DNA of 64,000 nt. Origin: Methylobacter sp. GTDB taxonomy: Bacteria > Pseudomonadota > Gammaproteobacteria > Methylococcales > Methylomonadaceae. The DNA lies in contig JAURVK010000068.1 of the NCBI GenBank assembly GCA_030655535.1, positions 7,316 through 71,315 on the forward strand. The letters run 5' to 3'. Each line of letters begins with the position of its first letter. Position 1 is the stretch's first letter. The notes under the pieces were generated by a model. It saw only the letters and a list, made by a program, of their open reading frames with translations. It made no database searches and was not told the DNA's origin. The translations under genes were made by a program, and so were the position numbers. Below, in pieces: positions 11,720-23,795 of the stretch.

Positions 11720-12511
11720 TTACTTATTTGGAATACTTGTCTTATGCGCAAAATAAAATAACCCAGCGCCAATCAAGATCATCGGCGTTGACAGAATCTG
11801 CCCCATAGTCACCCAGTCCAAAGCCAAATAACCTAATTGCGCGTCCGGCACTCTGAAAAACTCGACAAAAAACCGGAAGCATCCGTAAAAAAACAGCGCC
11901 ATGCCGGTCGTGGCCATAACCGGCCTGGGTTTGCTGGAATACACCCAGAGGATGACAAACAAGACGAAGCCTTCTAAAAAGGCTTCGTACAATTGCGAAG
12001 GGTGACGGGCTAACGGGCCGCCGGTAGGAAAGACCATGGCCCAGGGTACGTCGGTGGGCCTGCCCCATAATTCGGAATTGATAAAGTTGCCGATACGACC
12101 GGCGCCCAAACCTATAGGCGCCAGCGGCGCGATAATGTCGGTTAGTTGCATCATCGTGCATTGCTGTTTTTTTGCAAACAACCACATGGCGATAAAAACA
12201 CCCAACATGCCGCCATGAAAAGACATGCCGCCTTGCCATATTTTAAACAGGACAAGCGGATTGCTCAGAAATTCACCAAAATTATAAAACAGGATGTAGC
12301 CGATTCTGCCGCCCAGGATCACGCCGAGTGCACCGTAAGTCACCAGATCTTCTATGGCTTCAGGTTTAATCGGCGACCAGGACTGTTCAGCGCGTTTTTG
12401 CCCTATAAACCAGACGGCGGCAAAACCGATCAGGTACATCAATCCGTACCAGTGAATTTTTATCGGGCCTAAGCTAAAGGCAATAGGGTCGATTTGTGGG
12501 AAATTCAGCAT
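11720..12511 (-). CDS. lgt: Prolipoprotein diacylglyceryl transferase
   Basis: HWYGLMY, GGRIGY, GGMSFHGG, GRIGNFIN and HPSQLYE motifs. Confidence 0.97.
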   Translation of the reverse strand: MLNFPQIDPIAFSLGPIKIHWYGLMYLIGFAAVWFIGQKRAEQSWSPIKPEAIEDLVTYGALGVILGGRIGYILFYNFGEFLSNPLVLFKIWQGGMSFHGGMLGVFIAMWLFAKKQQCTMMQLTDIIAPLAPIGLGAGRIGNFINSELWGRPTDVPWAMVFPTGGPLARHPSQLYEAFLEGFVLFVILWVYSSKPRPVMATTGMALFFYGCFRFFVEFFRVPDAQLGYLALDWVTMGQILSTPMILIGAGLFYFAHKTSIPNK

Positions 12512-12514
12512 AAT

Positions 12515-12649
12515 TGTCGTGTGAAATAATTAGTGAAAAAATGGGTATTGATAAATAACACTTTTTTCATTATTTATGTCAACCAATGCGTGCCATTTTG
12601 ACACAAATAATGAAAAATTTCGGAATTTTCGACACTAATAGTGAAAAAA
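12515..12649 (+). repeat. Transposon end with spaced putative TnsB sites
   Basis: Sites at 12523-12541, 12562-12580 (inverted), 12600-12618 and 12631-12649. Confidence 0.75.
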
Positions 12650-13112
12650 TCCATCTCCTAACCTGCTATTTAAATAGAGAAGTCTCTGATTTAAGTTTAA
12701 CTGATTTGGATTGTTGAGGCTTGATGAGTTTTGACCATTTAGAGTAGATCTATCGGGAACTGGCTAGCTAACTAGTTAAATTTTAAATCCTTATTCCCAT
12801 CTAAAATTAAATTCGGTATGTGTAACGGTTTGCGTTTGAAGATCGCCGTGCTCGCATTTAATGCAGTTTCCTGCTCAGAATAACTGCAAATGAAAACAGG
12901 TCATCAAACAATCATTTGTTGGATTGCCTATAGCAGTTCTTGGTTGCGGGGTTGAAGCCAAACAGTAAGAAAACGTCCGGTATAATTCGATTTCAACCCC
13001 TCGAAAAGGTAAAATTAGACCAATGCCTCTTTCTGAGCATCGGGTAGGCATGTGGATTTGTTTAACGAATACTAAGCGCACCTAACTATGTAAATAACCA
13101 TCCAGGATATTC

Positions 13113-13823
13113 ATGACCCGTCGATTCGAAAAAAAGCGCCCCCCATTCATTACGCTGCCTCGGCACAAACGTAGCGATGAGGTCATCCGCCTCAAAGGAC
13201 GAATGAAGCGCGACTCTGACGAATATGGCGGAATGTTCACAAGCCACTTGGTTCTCGATGAACCTGGCCGGCCGGACTTGTACAGTCAGTGGTTTGATTT
13301 CTATTTCCCAGGCCTGGATCGGTTTACGATCTGGAATGCGGCTTTCGTGACTGCACGCAAGGCATTTTGGGATGCGGCCCATGAACTTGCTTACCAACGC
13401 ACGGCTGCAATGTTGACGCCGGAAGAGCATTCGGCTGAGTCCAATATGGAATTCGAGCCCGCGGAATTTTCCAATACCGGCAAAGTCTTGAGCTACCGAC
13501 TGATTGAGCGGAAGAAGATGCAATACGAGAAATTTGGCGGACTGACTTTCTTCGAGCAATGGGAAAAGCTGGAATCCGAGATCGTCCGCGAAGCCCCGCC
13601 GACCATCCATGAGTTTTTCCGTCTTGATCGTAGTTATGCTTATGGTGTCGGACTGTACATCGTTCTCGATGTAAACGTAATCGACCGCACAGCGATTGAA
13701 CAAGCCATTACCAAATTTCGAGCAATAGGTGAAACCGATTGGCAGGCCGTCAATCCAGTGCCGAGTGAACGACTCCCCGTTGTGAGCGAAAAAGAAGCCT
13801 TGGCGGCAATTAATTGCAAATGA
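13113..13823 (+). CDS. Hypothetical protein (transposon cargo)
   Basis: 236-aa ORF with plausible composition, co-oriented upstream of hsdR; no family recognised. Confidence 0.65.
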   Translation: MTRRFEKKRPPFITLPRHKRSDEVIRLKGRMKRDSDEYGGMFTSHLVLDEPGRPDLYSQWFDFYFPGLDRFTIWNAAFVTARKAFWDAAHELAYQRTAAMLTPEEHSAESNMEFEPAEFSNTGKVLSYRLIERKKMQYEKFGGLTFFEQWEKLESEIVREAPPTIHEFFRLDRSYAYGVGLYIVLDVNVIDRTAIEQAITKFRAIGETDWQAVNPVPSERLPVVSEKEALAAINCK

Positions 13824-13952
13824 AAATCAGAAAATAGACGACAATAAGGGGTTTGTACTGTAGAGATTTCGGGGGTGAACTTCGGAATGAGAGCCGCCAC
13901 GCGCTTATAGCAGGGTACTTGACCAACCAAGAGTCATGCTGAAGAAGGAATT

Positions 13953-16406
13953 ATGAGCAAAAAAACCCTGAGCGAATCCGATATTTGCGCTAAGTACATC
14001 ACGCCAGCCGTCATTCAGGCCGGATGGAATGATGCACTTCAGATTCGTCGCGAAGTATTTTTCACTAAAGGGCGCATCATCGTCCGTGGCAAGCTGGTTA
14101 CGCGGGGCAAGGCCAAGCGGGCTGATTACGTCCTGTATTACCAGCACTTTCCGATTGCCCTGATCGAGGCCAAGGACAACAACTGCGCCGTGGGCGACGG
14201 GATGCAGCAGGCGCTGGATTACGCCGTCACGCTGGATATTCCCTTTGTATTCGCATCCAACGGCGACGGCTTCGTGTTTCACGATCGCACCGGCCTGAGC
14301 GCACAAATCGAAACCACGCTGGTCTTAAACGCATTTCCAAACCCAGCCACGTTGTGGGCGCAATACTGCACCTGGAAGGGGCTGGCCCCCGAGCAGGAGA
14401 AGATTGTCCTGCAACCTTATTACGACGACGGCAGCGGCAAGGAACCGCGCTACTACCAGCGCAATGCCATCAACGCCACTGTCGAAGCCATCTCCAAGGG
14501 TCAAAACCGCATTTTGCTGGTCATGGCAACCGGCACCGGCAAGACCTACACTGCTTTTCAGATTATCTGGCGGCTTTGGAAGGCGGGGCAGAAGAAACGC
14601 ATCCTGTTTTTGGCTGACCGCAACGTGCTGATCGACCAGACCATGGTCAACGACTTCCGCCCCTTCGGCGCGGCCATGGCCAAACTCAGCACCGGAGCCA
14701 AAACCATCGAACGGGCTGACGGCAGCGTGGAGGTCATTACGACAGCCATCGATAATAAAGTCCGCCGCATCGACACCGCCTATGAAATCTATCTCGGACT
14801 GTATCAAGCGATCACCGGCCCGGAAGAGCGACAAAAGCTGTTCCGCGAATTTTCGCCCGGCTTCTTCGATCTCATCGTCATCGACGAGTGTCATCGGGGC
14901 AGCGCCGCCGAAGATTCCGCTTGGCGGGAAATCCTCGAATACTTTTCCGATGCCACGCAAATCGGCCTCACCGCCACGCCCAAAGAAACCGAGTATGTTT
15001 CCAATATCCATTACTTCGGCGAACCGGTTTACACCTACTCGCTCAAGCAGGGCATTCGTGACGGCTTCCTTGCCCCCTACAAAGTCATCAAGGTGCATCT
15101 CGATGTGGATGTAGAAGGCTACCGTCCTCAGTCAGGGGAAACCGACCAGTATGGTCACGAAATCGAAGACCGCATCTACAACCAAAAGGATTTTGACCGG
15201 AACCTTGTGATCGACGAACGCACCCAGCGCGTCGCTAAATGGGTGTCAGACTATCTCAAACAAAGTGGCGACCGGTTCCAGAAGACCATTGTCTTCTGCG
15301 TGGATACCGAACACGCCGCCCGGATGCGACTAGCCTTCATCAATGAGAACCAGGACCTCGTCCAACAGAACGCCCGCTACGTCATGCGTATTACCGGCAA
15401 CGATAAGGAGGGGACAGATCAGATCGGTAACTTTATTGACCCGGAAGCCAAATACCCGGTCATCGTCACCACCTCACGCCTGCTTTCCACCGGGGTTGAT
15501 GCGCAAACCTGCCGGTTGATTGTGCTCGATCGTGAAATCGGCTCCATGACCGAGTTCAAGCAGATTGTCGGACGCGGCACCCGTGTTCACGAAGACACCA
15601 AGAAGTATTACTTCACCCTGATTGACTTCCGCAAAGCCACCCATCACTTTGCCGATCCTGAATTCGACGGCGAACCGGTGCAGATTTACGAACCGGGTGA
15701 AAATGATCCGGTTACTCCGCCGGATAATGTGCCGCCGTCAGGAGACGAAGAGCCCATTCCGACTCATCCCGGCGAAGATGAAACCGTGGTGGACGAGCCG
15801 CCCGACATTACCTTACCGCCTGGGACGAACGAGCCTCCCGCCAAGTACTACGTCAAAGGCAAGCCTGTCTCTGTTCTCACCGAGCGGGTGGAATATCTCG
15901 ACGAAAACGGCAAGCTGGTGACTGAATCCCTGCGCGACTATAGCCGCAAGGCTATCCGCCAGCACTTTGCCAGCCTTGATCAATTCCTGCGCCGCTGGAA
16001 ATCAACCGAGCGCAAAGAAGCCATTATTGAAGAATTGGCGGAAGAGGGCTTGCTTCTGGAGCCGTTATTGGAAGAAGTCGGCAAAGACCTCGATCCCTTC
16101 GATCTGATTTGCCACATTGCCTTCGATCAGCCGCCCTTGACCCGGCGCGAACGTGTCAACAATGTCAAAAAACGCGATGTTTTCAACAAATATGGCTTGC
16201 AAGCCCGTGCAGTGCTTGAAGCTTTGCTCGCCAAATATCAGGACGAAGGCATCGTCACCGGTCTCGACAACGTCAAGATTCTGGAAATCCCCCCATTCAA
16301 CACGATGGGAACCCCCATTCAGCTTATCAAGGAATTCGGCACCCGAGCCAGCTTTGAAAATGCTGTCCATGAACTGCAAGCCGCCCTCTATCAGGACATT
16401 GCATGA
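13953..16406 (+). CDS. hsdR: Type I restriction enzyme R subunit (EcoAI/EcoEI-like)
   Basis: ADYVL...IEAK nuclease motif, [19 protein letters not shown] and QIVGRGTR motifs; EcoEI-like C-terminus. Confidence 0.95.
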
Positions 16407-16440
16407 CTGAAGCGTTTCACACCAGGAAAGAAGAACAGGT

Positions 16441-17249
16441 CTCACGCCAAGGCGCAAAGACGCCAAGATACAAATTCAACATTTTTACTTTGGCTTTTCT
16501 TGGCTCCTTGGCGCCTTGGCGTGAGCCACCAAATATAATCAGGAGATTGCATGATTGAAGAATTTCACGCCAAGGCGCCAAGACGCCAAGAGCCCAGCGA
16601 GGAAGTTGACCGACTTGCAACCCTAGTCGTCGATGCCTGCGTAAAAATTCACAAGTCGCTGGGTCCCGGACTACTTGAAAGCGTGTATGAACGGATTCTC
16701 GCTCACGAGCTCGAACAAAGGGGGTGCCAAGTAGCCCGGCAGGTTTCCATACCGATCACCTATTGCGGAATGACTTTTGAGGAAGGCTTCCGTGCTGATT
16801 TGCTTGTCAATAAGTTGTTGATCATTGAACTCAAGTCAATAGAAAAACTTCTTCCAGTACACAAGAAGCAGGTGTTAACCTACCTGCGGCTAACCGGCCT
16901 ACATCTCGGTCTGTTAATCAATTTTGGTGAAGAACTAATGAAGACCGGCATTCACCGCATCATTAACAACCGGATGACATGAAAGGGTGACTCACGCCAA
17001 GGCGCAAAGACGCCAAGAAAAGCGTTTTCCTTTGTGTCTTGGCGGCTTGGCGTGAGGCTTTCTTTTTGGCTTCGGAGCGCAACCGGCAATCCATGCCAGC
17101 GACGAATCAATTTTTTTACTTTATCTTCTCTTGGTGCCTTGGCGTGAGTCACCCAGTTATGTCAGCAAGAAACACCGTTAAATCCATTTCAGCAATGAAT
17201 CGATTTTTTTATTTTAACTTTTCTTGGCGCCTTGGCGCCTTGGCGTGAG
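16441..17249. repeat. Cluster of 8-bp-periodic palindrome arms around the GxxExxY gene
   Basis: Left arms YTCACGCCAAGGCGCMAAGACGCCAAG at 16441, 16564 and 16991. Right arms (...CTTGGCGTGAG) end at 16525, 17056, 17148 and 17249. Confidence 0.92.
16551..16982 (+). CDS. GxxExxY protein (PD-(D/E)xK nuclease-like)
   Basis: LGPGLLESVY signature, RADLLV...IIELKS and GLLINFG; SD AGGAG upstream. Confidence 0.93.
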   Translation: MIEEFHAKAPRRQEPSEEVDRLATLVVDACVKIHKSLGPGLLESVYERILAHELEQRGCQVARQVSIPITYCGMTFEEGFRADLLVNKLLIIELKSIEKLLPVHKKQVLTYLRLTGLHLGLLINFGEELMKTGIHRIINNRMT

Positions 17250-17259
17250 TCGTCCAGTT

Positions 17260-18717
17260 ATGTCAGCCAGAAATACCGTTAAATCCATTCAAGACATCAT
17301 GCGGCAGGATGTCGGCGTCGATGGCGACGCTCAGCGTCTTTCCCAGCTGTGCTGGATGTTCTTTCTGAAAATCATCGACGATCAGGATCAGCAATTGGAG
17401 GTGATGCAGGACAACTACCGTTCGCCGATTCCAGAGGCCTTGCAGTGGCGGACGTGGGCAGCCGACCCGGAAGGTATCACTGGCGATTCACTGCTAACCT
17501 TCATCAACACCGAGCTATTTCCAAAGCTCAAGGAACTGCCAACAACAGGCCAGAACGCCAATCGCAGCCGCGTGGTGCGCAGCGTGTTTGAAGATGCCTA
17601 CAACTATATGAAATCCGGCCAACTGCTGCGCCAGGTCATCAACAAAATCAGCGGCGTGGACTTCAACGACTTATCGGAACGCAAGCACTTCGGCGACATT
17701 TACGAACAGCTGCTCAACGACCTGCAAAGTGCGGGCAATGCGGGTGAGTATTACACCCCCCGTGCTGTCACTGCGTTCATGGTGGATCGTATCGACCCCA
17801 AGCCGGGAGAAATCCTGTTCGACCCCTCCTGTGGCACGGGCGGCTTTCTCACCTGTTCCATTCGCCACATGCGCGACCGCTATGTCAAAAAGGTCGAAGA
17901 CGAACAGGCTATGCAGGCCAGCCTGCGCGCCGTGGAGAAGAAACAGCTTCCGCACATGCTCTGCGTTACCAATATGCTGCTGCACGGTATTGAAGACCCC
18001 AGCTTCGTGCGCCATGACAACACCTTGGCACGGCCTTATATCAGCTATGGCCAGGCCGACCGGGTAGACATCATTCTTACCAATCCGCCGTTTGGCGGAA
18101 AGGAAGAAGACGGCATTGATTCCAACTTTCCCCCGCACTTCCGCACCAAGGAAACTGCCGACCTTTTTCTGGCATTGTTCATCCGCCTATTAAAGCCCGG
18201 TGGTCGCGCCGCCATCGTGTTGCCCGACGGCTCATTGTTTGGCGAAGGTGTCAAAACCCGCCTCAAGGAACACCTGCTGGAGGAGTGCAACCTGCACACC
18301 ATCGTGCGCCTGCCCAACAGCGTGTTCAAACCCTACGCAAGCATCGGCACCAACCTGCTGTTCTTCGAGAAGGGCGAGCCGACCAAAGACATCTGGTTCT
18401 ACGAACACCGTGTGCCGGAAGGCCAGAAGGCCTATTCGATGACCAGACCCATTCGCATCGAGCATCTGCAAGGTTGCGTGGACTGGTGGGGCGGGCCGGA
18501 ACGCCGAGACCGGCAGCAAACCGAAGTCGCTTGGAAAGTTAACTTAGATGAGATCAAAGCTCGTAACTACAACCTCGACTTCAAGAATCCGCATACCGTG
18601 GCCGATGACCATGGTGACCCGCAAGAGCTGCTGGCCAAGTTGGAAAAAGACGAACAGAAAGCCGCCAGTCTGCGCGATCAGCTCAAGTCTATTCTGGCTA
18701 AGGCGTTGCTGCGATGA
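17260..18717 (+). CDS. hsdM: Type I R-M methyltransferase subunit
   Basis: GEYYTPR, DPSCGTGGFL and NPPF motifs; start at MSARNTVKSIQDIMRQD (17260), not 17224. Confidence 0.95.
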   Translation: MSARNTVKSIQDIMRQDVGVDGDAQRLSQLCWMFFLKIIDDQDQQLEVMQDNYRSPIPEALQWRTWAADPEGITGDSLLTFINTELFPKLKELPTTGQNANRSRVVRSVFEDAYNYMKSGQLLRQVINKISGVDFNDLSERKHFGDIYEQLLNDLQSAGNAGEYYTPRAVTAFMVDRIDPKPGEILFDPSCGTGGFLTCSIRHMRDRYVKKVEDEQAMQASLRAVEKKQLPHMLCVTNMLLHGIEDPSFVRHDNTLARPYISYGQADRVDIILTNPPFGGKEEDGIDSNFPPHFRTKETADLFLALFIRLLKPGGRAAIVLPDGSLFGEGVKTRLKEHLLEECNLHTIVRLPNSVFKPYASIGTNLLFFEKGEPTKDIWFYEHRVPEGQKAYSMTRPIRIEHLQGCVDWWGGPERRDRQQTEVAWKVNLDEIKARNYNLDFKNPHTVADDHGDPQELLAKLEKDEQKAASLRDQLKSILAKALLR

Positions 18718-20510
18718 ACGCCGAACTCCTGCTGCAACACTTCGAACGCCTCAGTGAAGCGCCGGATGCCATCCCGCGTTTGCGGCGCTTTATTCTGGAT
18801 TTGGCGGTGCGCGGCAAATTGGTTGAACAAGACCCTAACGATGAACCGGCAATGGAGTTGTTGAAGCGGATTCAGGCGGAAAAGGACGGGCTGGGACTCA
18901 CGCCAAGGCGCAAAGGCGCCAAGAAAAGCGAAAAAGCCGATCAAGAAACGCTTGGCGACTTGGCGGCTTGGCGTGAGATGCCTTTTAGAATTCCTAGGGC
19001 TTGGGCATGGATCAGTTTGGGAGAGCTGGGTCTAACGCAGACGGGCACAACACCCTCAAAGAATCTCGGGGATAATTTCGGAAAGCACATTCCGTTCATA
19101 AAACCGGGCGATCTTTATCCTAACGGTGTCGATTACTCTAACGAAGGTCTCAGTGAGGATGGCCTGAAAGATTCCGGGAGAATTGCATCAGCAGGGTCAC
19201 TCTTGATGGTGTGTATTGGAACTATCGGGAAATGCCAGCTCGTGAATCGAGACTGCTCGTTTAATCAGCAAATCAACGCTCTTACACCATACGATAGCTT
19301 GGCCTCAAACTATTTATTGGCAGCATGTCTTTCTGACTTTTTCCAGAAATCTGCGTGGACAGCATCAGCGCGGACAACTATCGCCATCTTGAATAAAGGC
19401 AAGTGGGAGCGACTAAGACTACCTATCCCACCCCTCGCCGAACAACACCGCATCGTCGCCAAGGTGGATGAATTGATGGCGCTGTGTGACCAGTTGCAGG
19501 CGGCGCAAACTGAGCGCGAACAAAGCCGCGACCAACTGGTGGCGGCCAGCTTTCACCAGTTGCAGGATTCTAATGGTTTCACGCCAAGGCGCCAAGACGC
19601 CAAGAGAGACGAAAAGGCAGAACAGGAAAATCTTGGCGCCTTAGCGCCTTGGCGTGAGTCTGTTTTTCTTCAAAACCTTCCGCGTCTGACCACCCGCCCG
19701 GCACACATCAAACAACTGCGCAAGACCATCCTTAACCTCGCTGTGCGTGGCAAACTCGTCCCTCAAGACCCCAACGACGAACCAGCGGCGGAATTACTCA
19801 AGCGAATACAGGCAGAGAAAGCGCAGTTGGTGAAGGAGGGGAAGATCAAGAAGGACAAACCGCTGCCACAGATTTCAGAAGTTGAGAAGCTGTTTGTACT
19901 GCCGAGGGGATGGGAGTGGGTGCGCATGCAGGCAGCTTTTGATGTGCGCGATGGAACCCATGACACTCCGAAATACGTCGAGGATGACGGAATCCCACTA
20001 ATAACCAGCCGAAATTTTGTAAACGGAAAAATATCGTTCGATGACGCTAAACTTATTTCGCTGAGTGACCACAATTCCATTAAGAAGCGTTCAGGTGTAG
20101 ATAGAGGCGACATTCTCTATTCCATGATCGGAGGCAATATCGGAAATCAGGTTTTCGTTGATACTGACCGTGAATTCAGTATCAAGAACGTAGCCTTGTT
20201 CAAGTACTACACGAAGAAAGAACCGCTGCCGGAGTACCTGAACCTGTTTCTTAAGACAGTGACAATTGGCTTACAAAACGAGGCCGTAGGCGGTGCTCAG
20301 CCCTTTGTCTCTTTGTCATTGCTCAGAAATATTCCTTTTCCGATCCCACCCATAACCGAGCAACATCGCATCGTCGCCAAAGTCGATGAACTAATGGCGC
20401 TATGCGACCAACTGGAAGCCCAGCTCATCACTACAGAGACCGACAGCCGCAGCCTGCTTGAAGCCGTGCTGCATGAAGCTTTGGCTCCGGCGCCAGAGGA
20501 AGCCACCTGA
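18714..20510 (+). CDS. hsdS: Type I R-M specificity subunit with two in-frame palindrome insertions
   Basis: Two LAVRGKLVxQDPNDEPA and two PIPPxxEQHRIVAKVDELMALCDQL conserved regions around two TRDs. Confidence 0.95.
   Translation: MNAELLLQHFERLSEAPDAIPRLRRFILDLAVRGKLVEQDPNDEPAMELLKRIQAEKDGLGLTPRRKGAKKSEKADQETLGDLAAWREMPFRIPRAWAWISLGELGLTQTGTTPSKNLGDNFGKHIPFIKPGDLYPNGVDYSNEGLSEDGLKDSGRIASAGSLLMVCIGTIGKCQLVNRDCSFNQQINALTPYDSLASNYLLAACLSDFFQKSAWTASARTTIAILNKGKWERLRLPIPPLAEQHRIVAKVDELMALCDQLQAAQTEREQSRDQLVAASFHQLQDSNGFTPRRQDAKRDEKAEQENLGALAPWRESVFLQNLPRLTTRPAHIKQLRKTILNLAVRGKLVPQDPNDEPAAELLKRIQAEKAQLVKEGKIKKDKPLPQISEVEKLFVLPRGWEWVRMQAAFDVRDGTHDTPKYVEDDGIPLITSRNFVNGKISFDDAKLISLSDHNSIKKRSGVDRGDILYSMIGGNIGNQVFVDTDREFSIKNVALFKYYTKKEPLPEYLNLFLKTVTIGLQNEAVGGAQPFVSLSLLRNIPFPIPPITEQHRIVAKVDELMALCDQLEAQLITTETDSRSLLEAVLHEALAPAPEEAT
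18897..18977. repeat. 81-nt palindrome in frame in hsdS (copy 1)
   Basis: 27-nt arm, 27-nt loop, 27-nt arm; encodes LTPRRKGAKKSEKADQETLGDLAAWRE. Confidence 0.92.
19578..19658. repeat. 81-nt palindrome in frame in hsdS (copy 2)
   Basis: 27/27/27 layout; encodes FTPRRQDAKRDEKAEQENLGALAPWRE. Confidence 0.92.
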
Positions 20511-20755
20511 CCGGCATTGCCGAGGGTCTAATATCGTTGGGTAAAACCCATACCGAAAACTCCTCTGATTTTCGCTTTTTGTACCCAGCAAAACCGGTGA
20601 TTCCGGCGGGGCGGCTTTGCCATACCGTAAACATTTATTTTTATGAGGCATAATCTTGATCTGATTGTTTGCATCAAAAGCAATGCGGGGTATTCAAGAC
20701 CGATCCTGTGGAAGTCTAAATTTCACCTCATATCAGGAATATTCAATATTTTACC

Positions 20756-20986
20756 TCAATGGACATTGCCTGGTTGTTGATCAACCACTACTTTTCGATC
20801 GGTAAAGATGGTTTCAATTGTGGCAGGCGATACCATGTTGCCATTTTTTCGGCTGACGATTTCCAGGTTAATCTCGAGCTGTGGATCGCTCATATACTGG
20901 TATAAAGTCTCCAGAGGTATCTCAATCTTCTTTACCGGATTCCTGCCTTCGAGAATTCGCAAGATAATAGCCAAAGGTTCAAACAA
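20756..20986 (-). pseudogene. Short hypothetical ORF or gene fragment
   Basis: 76-aa ORF with TTG start in the AT-richer right part of the element; no family recognised. Confidence 0.3.
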
Positions 20987-21244
20987 TTCAAATGCACTCT
21001 ATTGGCCGATAGCTTCTAATCGCGTCAATCGGCAATTACAAAGCATCCATTCCATACATCATGTAGCCATTCTAAATACAGGCATATCAAATCTTTCATA
21101 GCTCAACCTTACTTAATGAGTAAAGCCCATCAAAAAGCCGGTGCTACACAGCCTGTATCCAAACAACTAAGCAAACCATAAGGCTCGCCCAGTTTTCTCA
21201 ATCCTGCTTAAATTTGGGTGAACTCCAAAATAATGCCTGCCGGA

Positions 21245-21314
21245 TTTTTTCACTATCTGTGTCACTACTTTTTCACTAACTTGTCATTTTTTTCATTAAT
21301 AGTGTCATTCGACA
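21245..21314 (-). repeat. Transposon end with three closely spaced putative TnsB sites
   Basis: TTTTTTCACTATCTGTGTC (21245-21263), CTTTTTCACTAACTTGTC (21268-21285) and TTTTTTCATTAATAGTGTC (21288-21306), then terminal ATTCGACA. Confidence 0.8.
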
Positions 21315-21317
21315 AGA

Positions 21318-23795
<2,478 letters not shown>

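What the first reader, a model, noticed from the sequence alone, without database searches (positions are those of the whole stretch)
12515..21314. Unannotated Tn7-like transposon ends define the gyrB 3' end as a probable attachment site
Seen: TGT...ACA termini with related terminal octamers, three closely spaced 19-bp motifs at the gyrB-proximal end and four spaced motifs (one inverted) at the other end. The element begins 3 bp after the gyrB stop and ends 3 bp before the lgt ATG. Known: Tn7-family elements have this asymmetric TnsB-site layout, and the compact end sits next to the conserved target gene recognised by TnsD/TniQ. Inference: this is a site-specific element targeting gyrB that has lost its tns genes or is mobilised in trans, and carries defence cargo. 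The 5-bp flanks (ATAAT versus AGATT) match only 3/5, so a target-site duplication is not demonstrated.
Basis: partly seen in the sequence, partly recalled or inferred. Interest (0 to 1): 0.82.

Follow-up and report, generated by a model that had tools for sequence, protein, structure and literature searches.

The report
Tn7-like transposon relic behind gyrB
An 8.8-kb jumping-gene remnant carrying a restriction-modification system, but none of its own transposition genes, sits in the two-base gap between the gyrB and lgt genes; intact relatives in many bacteria sit at the same spot, so the end of gyrB is likely a dedicated landing site, probably read by their TnsD-type protein.

Summary
Confirmed. 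Window 12515-21314 has real Tn7-like ends: three tight sites beside gyrB, four spaced sites (one inverted) beside lgt, spaced as in intact relatives. Twelve of 29 same-genus loci have the empty junction, gyrB-stop, 2 nt, lgt-ATG. The element has no tns genes, and none were found in its 88%-complete genome. Relatives with the same ends encode TnsA, TnsB, TnsC and TniQ. In 29 of 78 loci of this TnsB family gyrB is in view, and the compact end lies 2-10 bp behind its stop; these span 18 named genera. All 22 informative loci encode a ~600-aa TnsD-like TniQ, 11 of them no other, so it is the likely gyrB reader (untested). Perfect 5-bp duplications flank 11 of 17 relatives, including tns-less minis; the window's 3/5 match likely reflects a collapsed stack of insertions. 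Targeting is not exclusive: the same ends recur on plasmid-type DNA, six times upstream of kfrA. I found no paper naming gyrB as a site; this scan noted gyrB sites before in three other genomes.

The parts
11720..12511 (-). lgt, host gene; only copy found in the genome; directly follows gyrB in empty alleles
   Evidence: Pfam PF01790; single tblastn hit; empty junctions
12510..12514 (-). lgt-side copy of the target duplication (ATTAT on the minus strand), which supplies the AT of the lgt start codon
   Evidence: Equals the last base of the gyrB stop, the 2-nt gap and AT in empty alleles; same register in 6 other filled genomes
12515..12647 (+). Spaced (left-type) end: TGT plus sites at 12522, 12581 (inverted), 12599, 12630
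   Evidence: offsets 59/77/108 equal those of intact elements in G187, G225, G062, G111; 71-79% identical to its best relatives
13113..13823 (+). 236-aa cargo ORF of unknown family
   Evidence: No hit in Pfam, NCBIfam, PADLOC or the ESM Atlas
13953..16406 (+). hsdR, EcoAI/FtnUII-family type I restriction subunit; nuclease and helicase motifs present
   Evidence: NF046051 above cut-off; motifs
16439..17258 (+). GxxExxY nuclease gene (16551-16982) framed by palindromic repeat arms; a later insertion between hsdR and hsdM
   Evidence: TIGR04256; repeats; a related cargo in run X7 lacks 16397-17259
17260..18717 (+). hsdM, type I methyltransferase
   Evidence: PF02384, PF12161; SAM-binding and NPPF motifs
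18714..20510 (+). hsdS, with two 80-bp GxxExxY-type hairpins read in frame (18898-18977, 19579-19658)
   Evidence: PF01420
21165..21194 (-). Decayed copy of an inverted repeat that lies inside the compact end of several relatives
   Evidence: Fuzzy match; role unknown
21247..21314 (-). Compact (right-type) end: TGT plus three tight sites, next to the att gene
   Evidence: 96-99% identical over 69-74 nt to ends in other genomes (L192, L196, L199)
21315..21319 (-). gyrB-side flank (AATCT on the minus strand); 3/5 match to the lgt-side copy
21318..23783 (-). gyrB; its 3' end is the attachment gene. The TnsD-binding stretch is inferred to lie in the last ~25-75 nt (about 21343-21393, codons for LMGDxVEPRRxFI)
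   Evidence: TIGR01059 above cut-off; conservation of 52 occupied gyrB tails; position of the binding stretch inferred by analogy to Tn7 (recalled)

Best explanation
The segment is a Tn7-like element without transposition genes that sits 3 bp behind the gyrB stop, at a spot shared with intact relatives, and it was likely placed there by a ~600-aa TnsD-like TniQ that probably reads the last codons of gyrB. SHOWN: the ends, the empty site, the cognate tnsABC-tniQ relatives, the fixed distance and orientation, 5-bp duplications in relatives, and tns-less minis with perfect duplications. INFERRED: TnsD binds the gyrB coding end, loads TnsC, and TnsAB inserts the element with its compact end toward gyrB, a few bases past the stop; the 5-bp duplication leaves both the gyrB stop and the lgt ATG intact. 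INFERRED: the site was hit more than once and recombination between stacked elements left a young gyrB-side end and an older lgt-side end around an R-M cargo, which explains the 3/5 flanks. The copy can move only if Tns proteins arrive in trans.
For: Empty sites in 12 of 29 genus loci and in a relative in run X7. Five near-complete genomes have elements with these ends and tnsA-B-C-tniQ-tniQ behind gyrB. Of 78 loci of this TnsB family, 29 show the gyrB C-terminus; 28 match an end pattern 2-10 bp past the stop and the 29th shows a TGT end at +4 by eye. Nine of nine tested are gyrB, not parE. None of the other 49 loci shows a compact end abutting a different host gene. Across all fetched loci, 52 of 74 distinct gyrB tails have an end 2-13 bp downstream, mode 4 (the set is enriched by how it was collected). 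All 22 informative gyrB loci encode the long TniQ, 11 no other TniQ. Its model (pLDDT 91.7) has a TniQ core followed by helix-turn-helix units. Perfect duplications in 11 of 17 relatives, among them tns-less minis. Tandem stacks at gyrB in G036, G187, G062, G022, G237. Compact end 96-99% like relatives against 71-79% for the spaced end.
Against: No binding or transposition assay. The window's own duplication is 3/5. About half of the family's compact ends are not at gyrB: of 51 matches, 26 are at gyrB or in its stacks, 4 abut another Tn7-like end at a place not determined, 8 lie at plasmid-maintenance genes, 2 beyond ygjP and 11 elsewhere. No tns gene was found in the genome (88% complete) and no contig of run X1 laid on a relative's tns genes at 80% likeness, so current mobility is not shown. 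Spaced ends vary between subfamilies, so lower identity is not a clean age measure. One gyrB locus (L146) has its tns genes pointing the other way. Seven of the 29 loci could not be scored for TniQ (six cut by contig ends, one decayed).
Confidence: 0.82

Rival explanations
1. One old insertion: both ends come from a single event, the tns genes were deleted in place, and the 5-bp duplication decayed by two mutations.
For: The lgt-side copy equals the expected ATTAT; the gyrB-side ATCT differs by two changes in DNA that is probably unselected. No internal end or tns remnant is seen.
Against: The adjacent compact end is 96-99% identical to ends in other genomes, so two changes in the next 5 bp are unlikely. 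Six of 17 relatives also have mismatched flanks, mostly in stacks. Two genus relatives show the same TAA-TC-TGT start, the trace expected of an earlier insertion (L006, L027).
Confidence: 0.3
2. gyrB is not read by sequence: elements collect there because TnsC or TniQ is drawn to a structure near oriC (supercoiling, replication or transcription end), or to ends already present.
For: gyrB lies next to dnaA and the likely origin. The ends also occur at other places. New elements often land on older ends.
Against: The distance to the stop is tight (mode 4 bp) and the orientation fixed in 18 named genera with different downstream genes. First insertions into empty sites fall at one register.
Confidence: 0.07
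3. The shorter TniQ, or another partner, rather than the long TniQ, targets gyrB.
For: Eleven of 22 informative gyrB loci also encode a shorter TniQ; an Xre-type gene precedes tnsA in 49 of 78 loci.
Against: Eleven of 22 have only the long TniQ. TnsE and Csy3 are absent from the five intact elements tested; the single hits in G187 lie far away.
Confidence: 0.06
4. The repeats are host regulator sites or chance AT-rich matches, and the R-M island arrived by another route.
For: The element itself has no transposase.
Against: Same sequence and spacing as the ends of tns-bearing elements with perfect duplications; absent from empty alleles.
Confidence: 0.01

Closest known systems
Tn7 TnsABC+TnsD pathway into attTn7 behind glmS (PMC11406308, passages and section 11 read)
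   Same: TGT/ACA termini, one tight and one spaced end, tight end next to the att gene, insertion just outside an essential gene, 5-bp duplication, stacks that build islands.
   Different: Target is gyrB. The long TniQ matches Tn7 TnsD only in the TniQ core. No TnsE in the intact elements tested. Three tight sites, not four.
parE-targeting Tn7-like elements, e.g. Tn7017 and the Acinetobacter parE branch (PMC11014353, PMC11406308, bioRxiv 2020.07.02.184150; passages read)
   Same: Protein-guided insertion behind a type II topoisomerase B-subunit gene; often two TniQ genes.
   Different: Target is gyrB by HMM. The targeting TniQ is ~600 aa against ~486 aa reported for parE. No parE-adjacent element appeared among TniQ relatives. 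Common ancestry of the two selectors was not tested, as I had no parE-type sequence.
nrdB-targeting Tn7-like elements (PMC11014353; bioRxiv 2025.07.27.667033; passages read)
   Same: In a 400-genome class sample, weaker matches to the long-TniQ profile include elements next to nrdB and nrdJ genes.
   Different: Different target gene; their ends and exact insertion points were not mapped here.
Tn5053/Tn402 family (res-site targeting; PMC11406308 table; end sequence recalled)
   Same: TGTCG-type termini (recalled); ends found near resolvase and par genes on plasmid-type DNA.
   Different: This family has TnsA and a chromosomal att site.

Membership tests
Tn7-like transposons | TGT...ACA termini | tested here: met
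Tn7-like transposons | Asymmetric arrays of TnsB-type sites, tight end next to the att gene | tested here: met
   that TnsB binds them is inferred
Tn7-like transposons | tnsA, tnsB, tnsC, tniQ inside the element (autonomy) | tested here: not met
   None in the element or genome (positive controls in 106, 107). It is filed as a non-autonomous derivative
Tn7-like transposons | Cognate tnsABC-tniQ linked to the same ends in relatives | tested here: met
   (L223 has a 93% identical compact end and tnsABC)
Tn7-like transposons | 5-bp target-site duplication | tested here: inconclusive
   3/5 in the window; perfect in 11 of 17 relatives
TnsD-guided att-site pathway | Fixed distance and orientation to a conserved gene | tested here: met
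TnsD-guided att-site pathway | TniQ with a C-terminal DNA-binding extension present in all elements at the site | tested here: met
   22 of 22 informative loci; HTH units
TnsD-guided att-site pathway | Sequence-specific binding of TnsD to the gene end | not testable with these tools
   Needs a binding or transposition assay
parE-targeting Tn7-like elements | Insertion behind parE | tested here: not met
   9 of 9 relatives tested, and the window's gene, are gyrB
CRISPR-associated transposons (type I-F3) | Cas7f/Csy3 in the element | tested here: not met
   Not in five intact elements; other Cas types not searched by family
Tn7 / Tn6022 TnsE pathway | tnsE in the element | tested here: not met
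   (PF18623 only; a highly diverged TnsE could be missed)

The most novel reading that the evidence does not exclude
This is a widespread two-pathway Tn7-like family without TnsE or CRISPR: the long TniQ homes to gyrB, and the short TniQ directs insertion into plasmids by recognising the protein-coated promoter of kfrA (and similar par or resolvase promoters). That would be an undescribed plasmid-targeting mechanism, used in trans by tns-less minis that carry defence and metal-resistance cargo between methanotroph plasmids and chromosomes.
Probability: 0.3. Interest if true: 0.78.

Novelty: new variant of a known kind. Interest (0 to 1): 0.5.

Why it matters
It adds gyrB to the short list of protein-read Tn7-like attachment sites (glmS, parE, nrdB, comM, tRNA genes) and names the candidate selector, so the claim can be tested with one transposition assay. 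The site is used across Beta- and Gammaproteobacteria and is a hotspot for defence islands beside the replication origin of methanotrophs. A gyrB-homing system could serve as a single-copy integration tool in such hosts. In this genus the insertion splits gyrB from lgt, only 2 nt apart, yet leaves both codons intact. New att sites turn up regularly and this copy is a relic, so the surprise is moderate; the plasmid kfrA pathway would raise it if real.

Tried and rejected
Search for tns genes in trans: none in the genome by tblastn, Pfam or profile; the two TniB-family hits lie in 761- and 868-aa frames, and that family rang in 13 of 14 controls, so they were rejected. Laying four runs on a relative's tns genes gave only short diverged pieces, none in X1; not proof of absence. 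No second copy of the ends in the genome. Outward promoter for lgt in the spaced end: one weak match (9/12), below the 2.4 expected by chance; RNA run X11 does not cover the ends, so lgt expression is open. A link to parE-type selectors: none found in 78 loci plus 10 distant TniQ loci from 9 genomes; not excluded. A conserved ~400-aa ORF before tnsA as second selector: only 3 of 78 loci, no named family; rejected as a core gene. A metagenome scan with a broad TniQ alignment did not run. Wobble-position conservation in gyrB tails did not single out a binding motif. The TniQ tree is the quick version only and was used for description. Literature: no paper held Tn7-like + gyrB + attachment site + TnsD; other searches returned no use of gyrB as a site; kfrA + tniQ gave 3 listings that I did not open.
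Full report
Observation. The window shows TGT at 12515 (+) and at 21314 (-), 8,800 bp apart. The gyrB side has three tight sites (21307, 21286, 21264). The lgt side has four spaced sites, the second inverted (12522, 12581, 12599, 12630). The element starts 3 nt after the gyrB stop and ends 3 nt before the lgt ATG. A matrix built from 23 relatives' sites places six window sites in the top 8 of the genome. Contigs of run X1 cross both junctions unchanged (X1 may be the source sample).

Empty site. Of 29 same-genus gyrB loci, 12 run gyrB stop, 2 nt, lgt ATG with no repeats. By eye, 12 show a Tn7-like end within a few bases of the stop (some decayed) and 5 are unclear. A relative in run X7 also joins 12512 to 21317. 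In the window and the six other filled genomes where lgt was in view, the end meets lgt at one register, ACA-A(T/C)TAT-G. The first insertion therefore duplicated the last base of the stop, the gap and the AT of lgt. By arithmetic only 8 cut positions keep both codons, and the observed one is among them (inference).

Cognate machinery. The element holds no tns remnant. The genome (2.76 Mb, 88% complete) gave no TnsA, TnsB or TniQ hit, while control genomes did. G036 has two stacked elements between gyrB and lgt, each with TnsA, TnsB, TnsC and TniQ; the second has ends of the window's type. Its long TniQ led to five near-complete genomes (G187, G225, G062, G237, G111) where such elements follow gyrB. 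In four of them the spaced-end offsets (59, 77, 108) equal the window's; G237's distal end is truncated. A second end type, with its own TnsB and a 22-25% identical TniQ, uses the same site.

Breadth. A scan of species-representative genomes with the TnsB alignment gave 78 loci. Twenty-nine show the gyrB C-terminus within the flank. Twenty-eight match an end pattern 2-10 bp past the stop and L142 shows a TGT end at +4 by eye. They come from 18 named genera, among them Methylomonas, Methylobacter, Methylotenera, Cupriavidus, Zoogloea, Chromobacterium, Advenella and Cellvibrio. Nine of nine tested pass the gyrB cut-off and fail the parE cut-offs. In the other 49 loci the compact end is mostly out of view; the four clear ones abut other ends. 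Over all fetched loci, 52 of 74 distinct gyrB tails carry an end 2-13 bp downstream; this set is enriched by design.

Selector. All 22 gyrB loci with the region intact encode a 595-685-aa TniQ; 11 have only this one and 11 also a shorter one; 7 could not be scored. The long protein has a TniQ domain and excisionase- or MerR-like HTH units. Its AlphaFold model (46 sequences, pLDDT 91.7) matches solved TniQ and TnsD proteins mainly in the core. TnsE and Csy3 are not in the five intact elements. That the long TniQ binds the gyrB end is an inference from this pattern and from Tn7 (PMC11406308, section 11). The conserved codons LMGDxVEPRRxFI lie 40-77 nt before the end of the stop codon and are the likely site (inferred).

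Duplication. Eleven of 17 relatives with both ends in hand have a perfect 5-bp duplication; six do not, mostly in stacks. Tns-less elements with perfect duplications occur at gyrB (G062, G022) and elsewhere (L209, L212, L215, L219), so mobilisation in trans happens in this family. The window's compact end is 96-99% identical to ends in other genomes, its spaced end 71-79%. I favour a collapsed stack (about 0.65) over decay of one duplication (about 0.3).

Against exclusivity. A family-wide search with the compact end gave 51 matches in 39 of 346 genomes; I fetched the 37 not yet seen. In all, 26 are at gyrB or in its stacks, 4 abut another end at an undetermined place, 2 lie beyond ygjP and 11 elsewhere. 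Five lie about 90-375 bp upstream of a divergent kfrA gene, one upstream of a resolvase and two (one element) upstream of parA. A sixth kfrA case is on the complete mobilizable plasmid L229. Four of the six KfrA proteins are 69-76% identical and two are distant, with different insertion points, so several events are likely. Short-repeat arrays lie just outside these ends; that KfrA binds such arrays is recalled. This looks like a second, plasmid-directed pathway; the short TniQ is my candidate, untested. Only 3 of 72,556 plasmids hold a distant long TniQ.

Cargo. A type I R-M system with intact reading frames and motifs, a 236-aa orphan and a GxxExxY cassette absent from a related cargo. Restriction activity is untested. 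R-M modules are the commonest defence cargo of Tn7-like elements (PMC8649781, passage).

Known or new. Papers seen: PMC10293859 (passages; term search of 3 supplements, no gyrB or gyrase), PMC8649781 (passages; one supplement, cut when stored, no gyrB), PMC11406308 (passages, section 11), PMC11014353 (passages), PMC12452197 (passages; gyrB only as a marker), bioRxiv 2020.07.02.184150, 2021.08.16.456562 and 2025.07.27.667033 (passages). They name glmS, comM, yhiN, parE, nrdB, nrdD, tRNA and guide-read sites, not gyrB. Searches found no use of gyrB as a site. Subscription papers and bioRxiv supplements were not visible and may list it. Distant matches to the long-TniQ profile lie next to nrdB, nrdJ and comM-type genes, none next to parE. 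Earlier notes of this scan report gyrB sites in three other genomes; I formed my reading before seeing them and did not check their loci.

Verdict. A real, non-autonomous Tn7-like element at a gyrB attachment site used by a broad family: a new variant of a known kind. Confidence 0.82 for the mechanism as stated; interest 0.5.

Noticed in passing
L174, L182, L184, L186, L201, L229 (kfrA); L183 (resolvase); L196, L199 (parA): Ends of the same family recur just upstream of plasmid-maintenance genes, with perfect 5-bp duplications in tns-less elements (L209, L212, L215); a possible second targeting pathway.
   Followed up: partly
window 16439-17258, 18898-18977, 19579-19658: GxxExxY nuclease gene framed by palindromic arms built on a 7-nt repeat; two 80-bp hairpins are read in frame inside hsdS. 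The 10 arms matched in the genome all lie in this cargo.
   Followed up: partly
window 12515-12650; L037, L044, L047, L048, L051 upstream of lgt: The only lgt copy is cut off from gyrB and must be expressed from element DNA. Five relatives keep a similar terminal ~30 nt before lgt although the inner end differs; selection or crossover position, unexplained.
   Followed up: partly
L031, L039, L040, L046, L077: A second Tn7-like clade with different end sites and a single 614-aa TniQ uses the same gyrB site and stacks with the first.
   Followed up: partly
L035:13082 (-), L036:135 (-): Compact ends about 100 bp beyond the 3' end of ygjP in two genomes of the genus; a possible secondary chromosomal site.
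   Followed up: no
L106, L110, L126, L130, L131, L139 just inside the compact end: A stem-loop with A and T runs directly follows the third site, placed to stop gyrB read-through (seen by eye).
   Followed up: no
L209, L214, L215, L216; G062 mini (L082): Tns-less elements of this family carry genes that look like heavy-metal efflux and mer-type functions (judged from N-terminal sequence, not scanned).
   Followed up: no
L236 (G709), L240 (G793): Distant Tn7-like elements lie next to nrdJ and nrdB genes.
   Followed up: partly
window 13113-13823: 236-aa cargo ORF with no family hit, directly before the R-M operon.
   Followed up: partly
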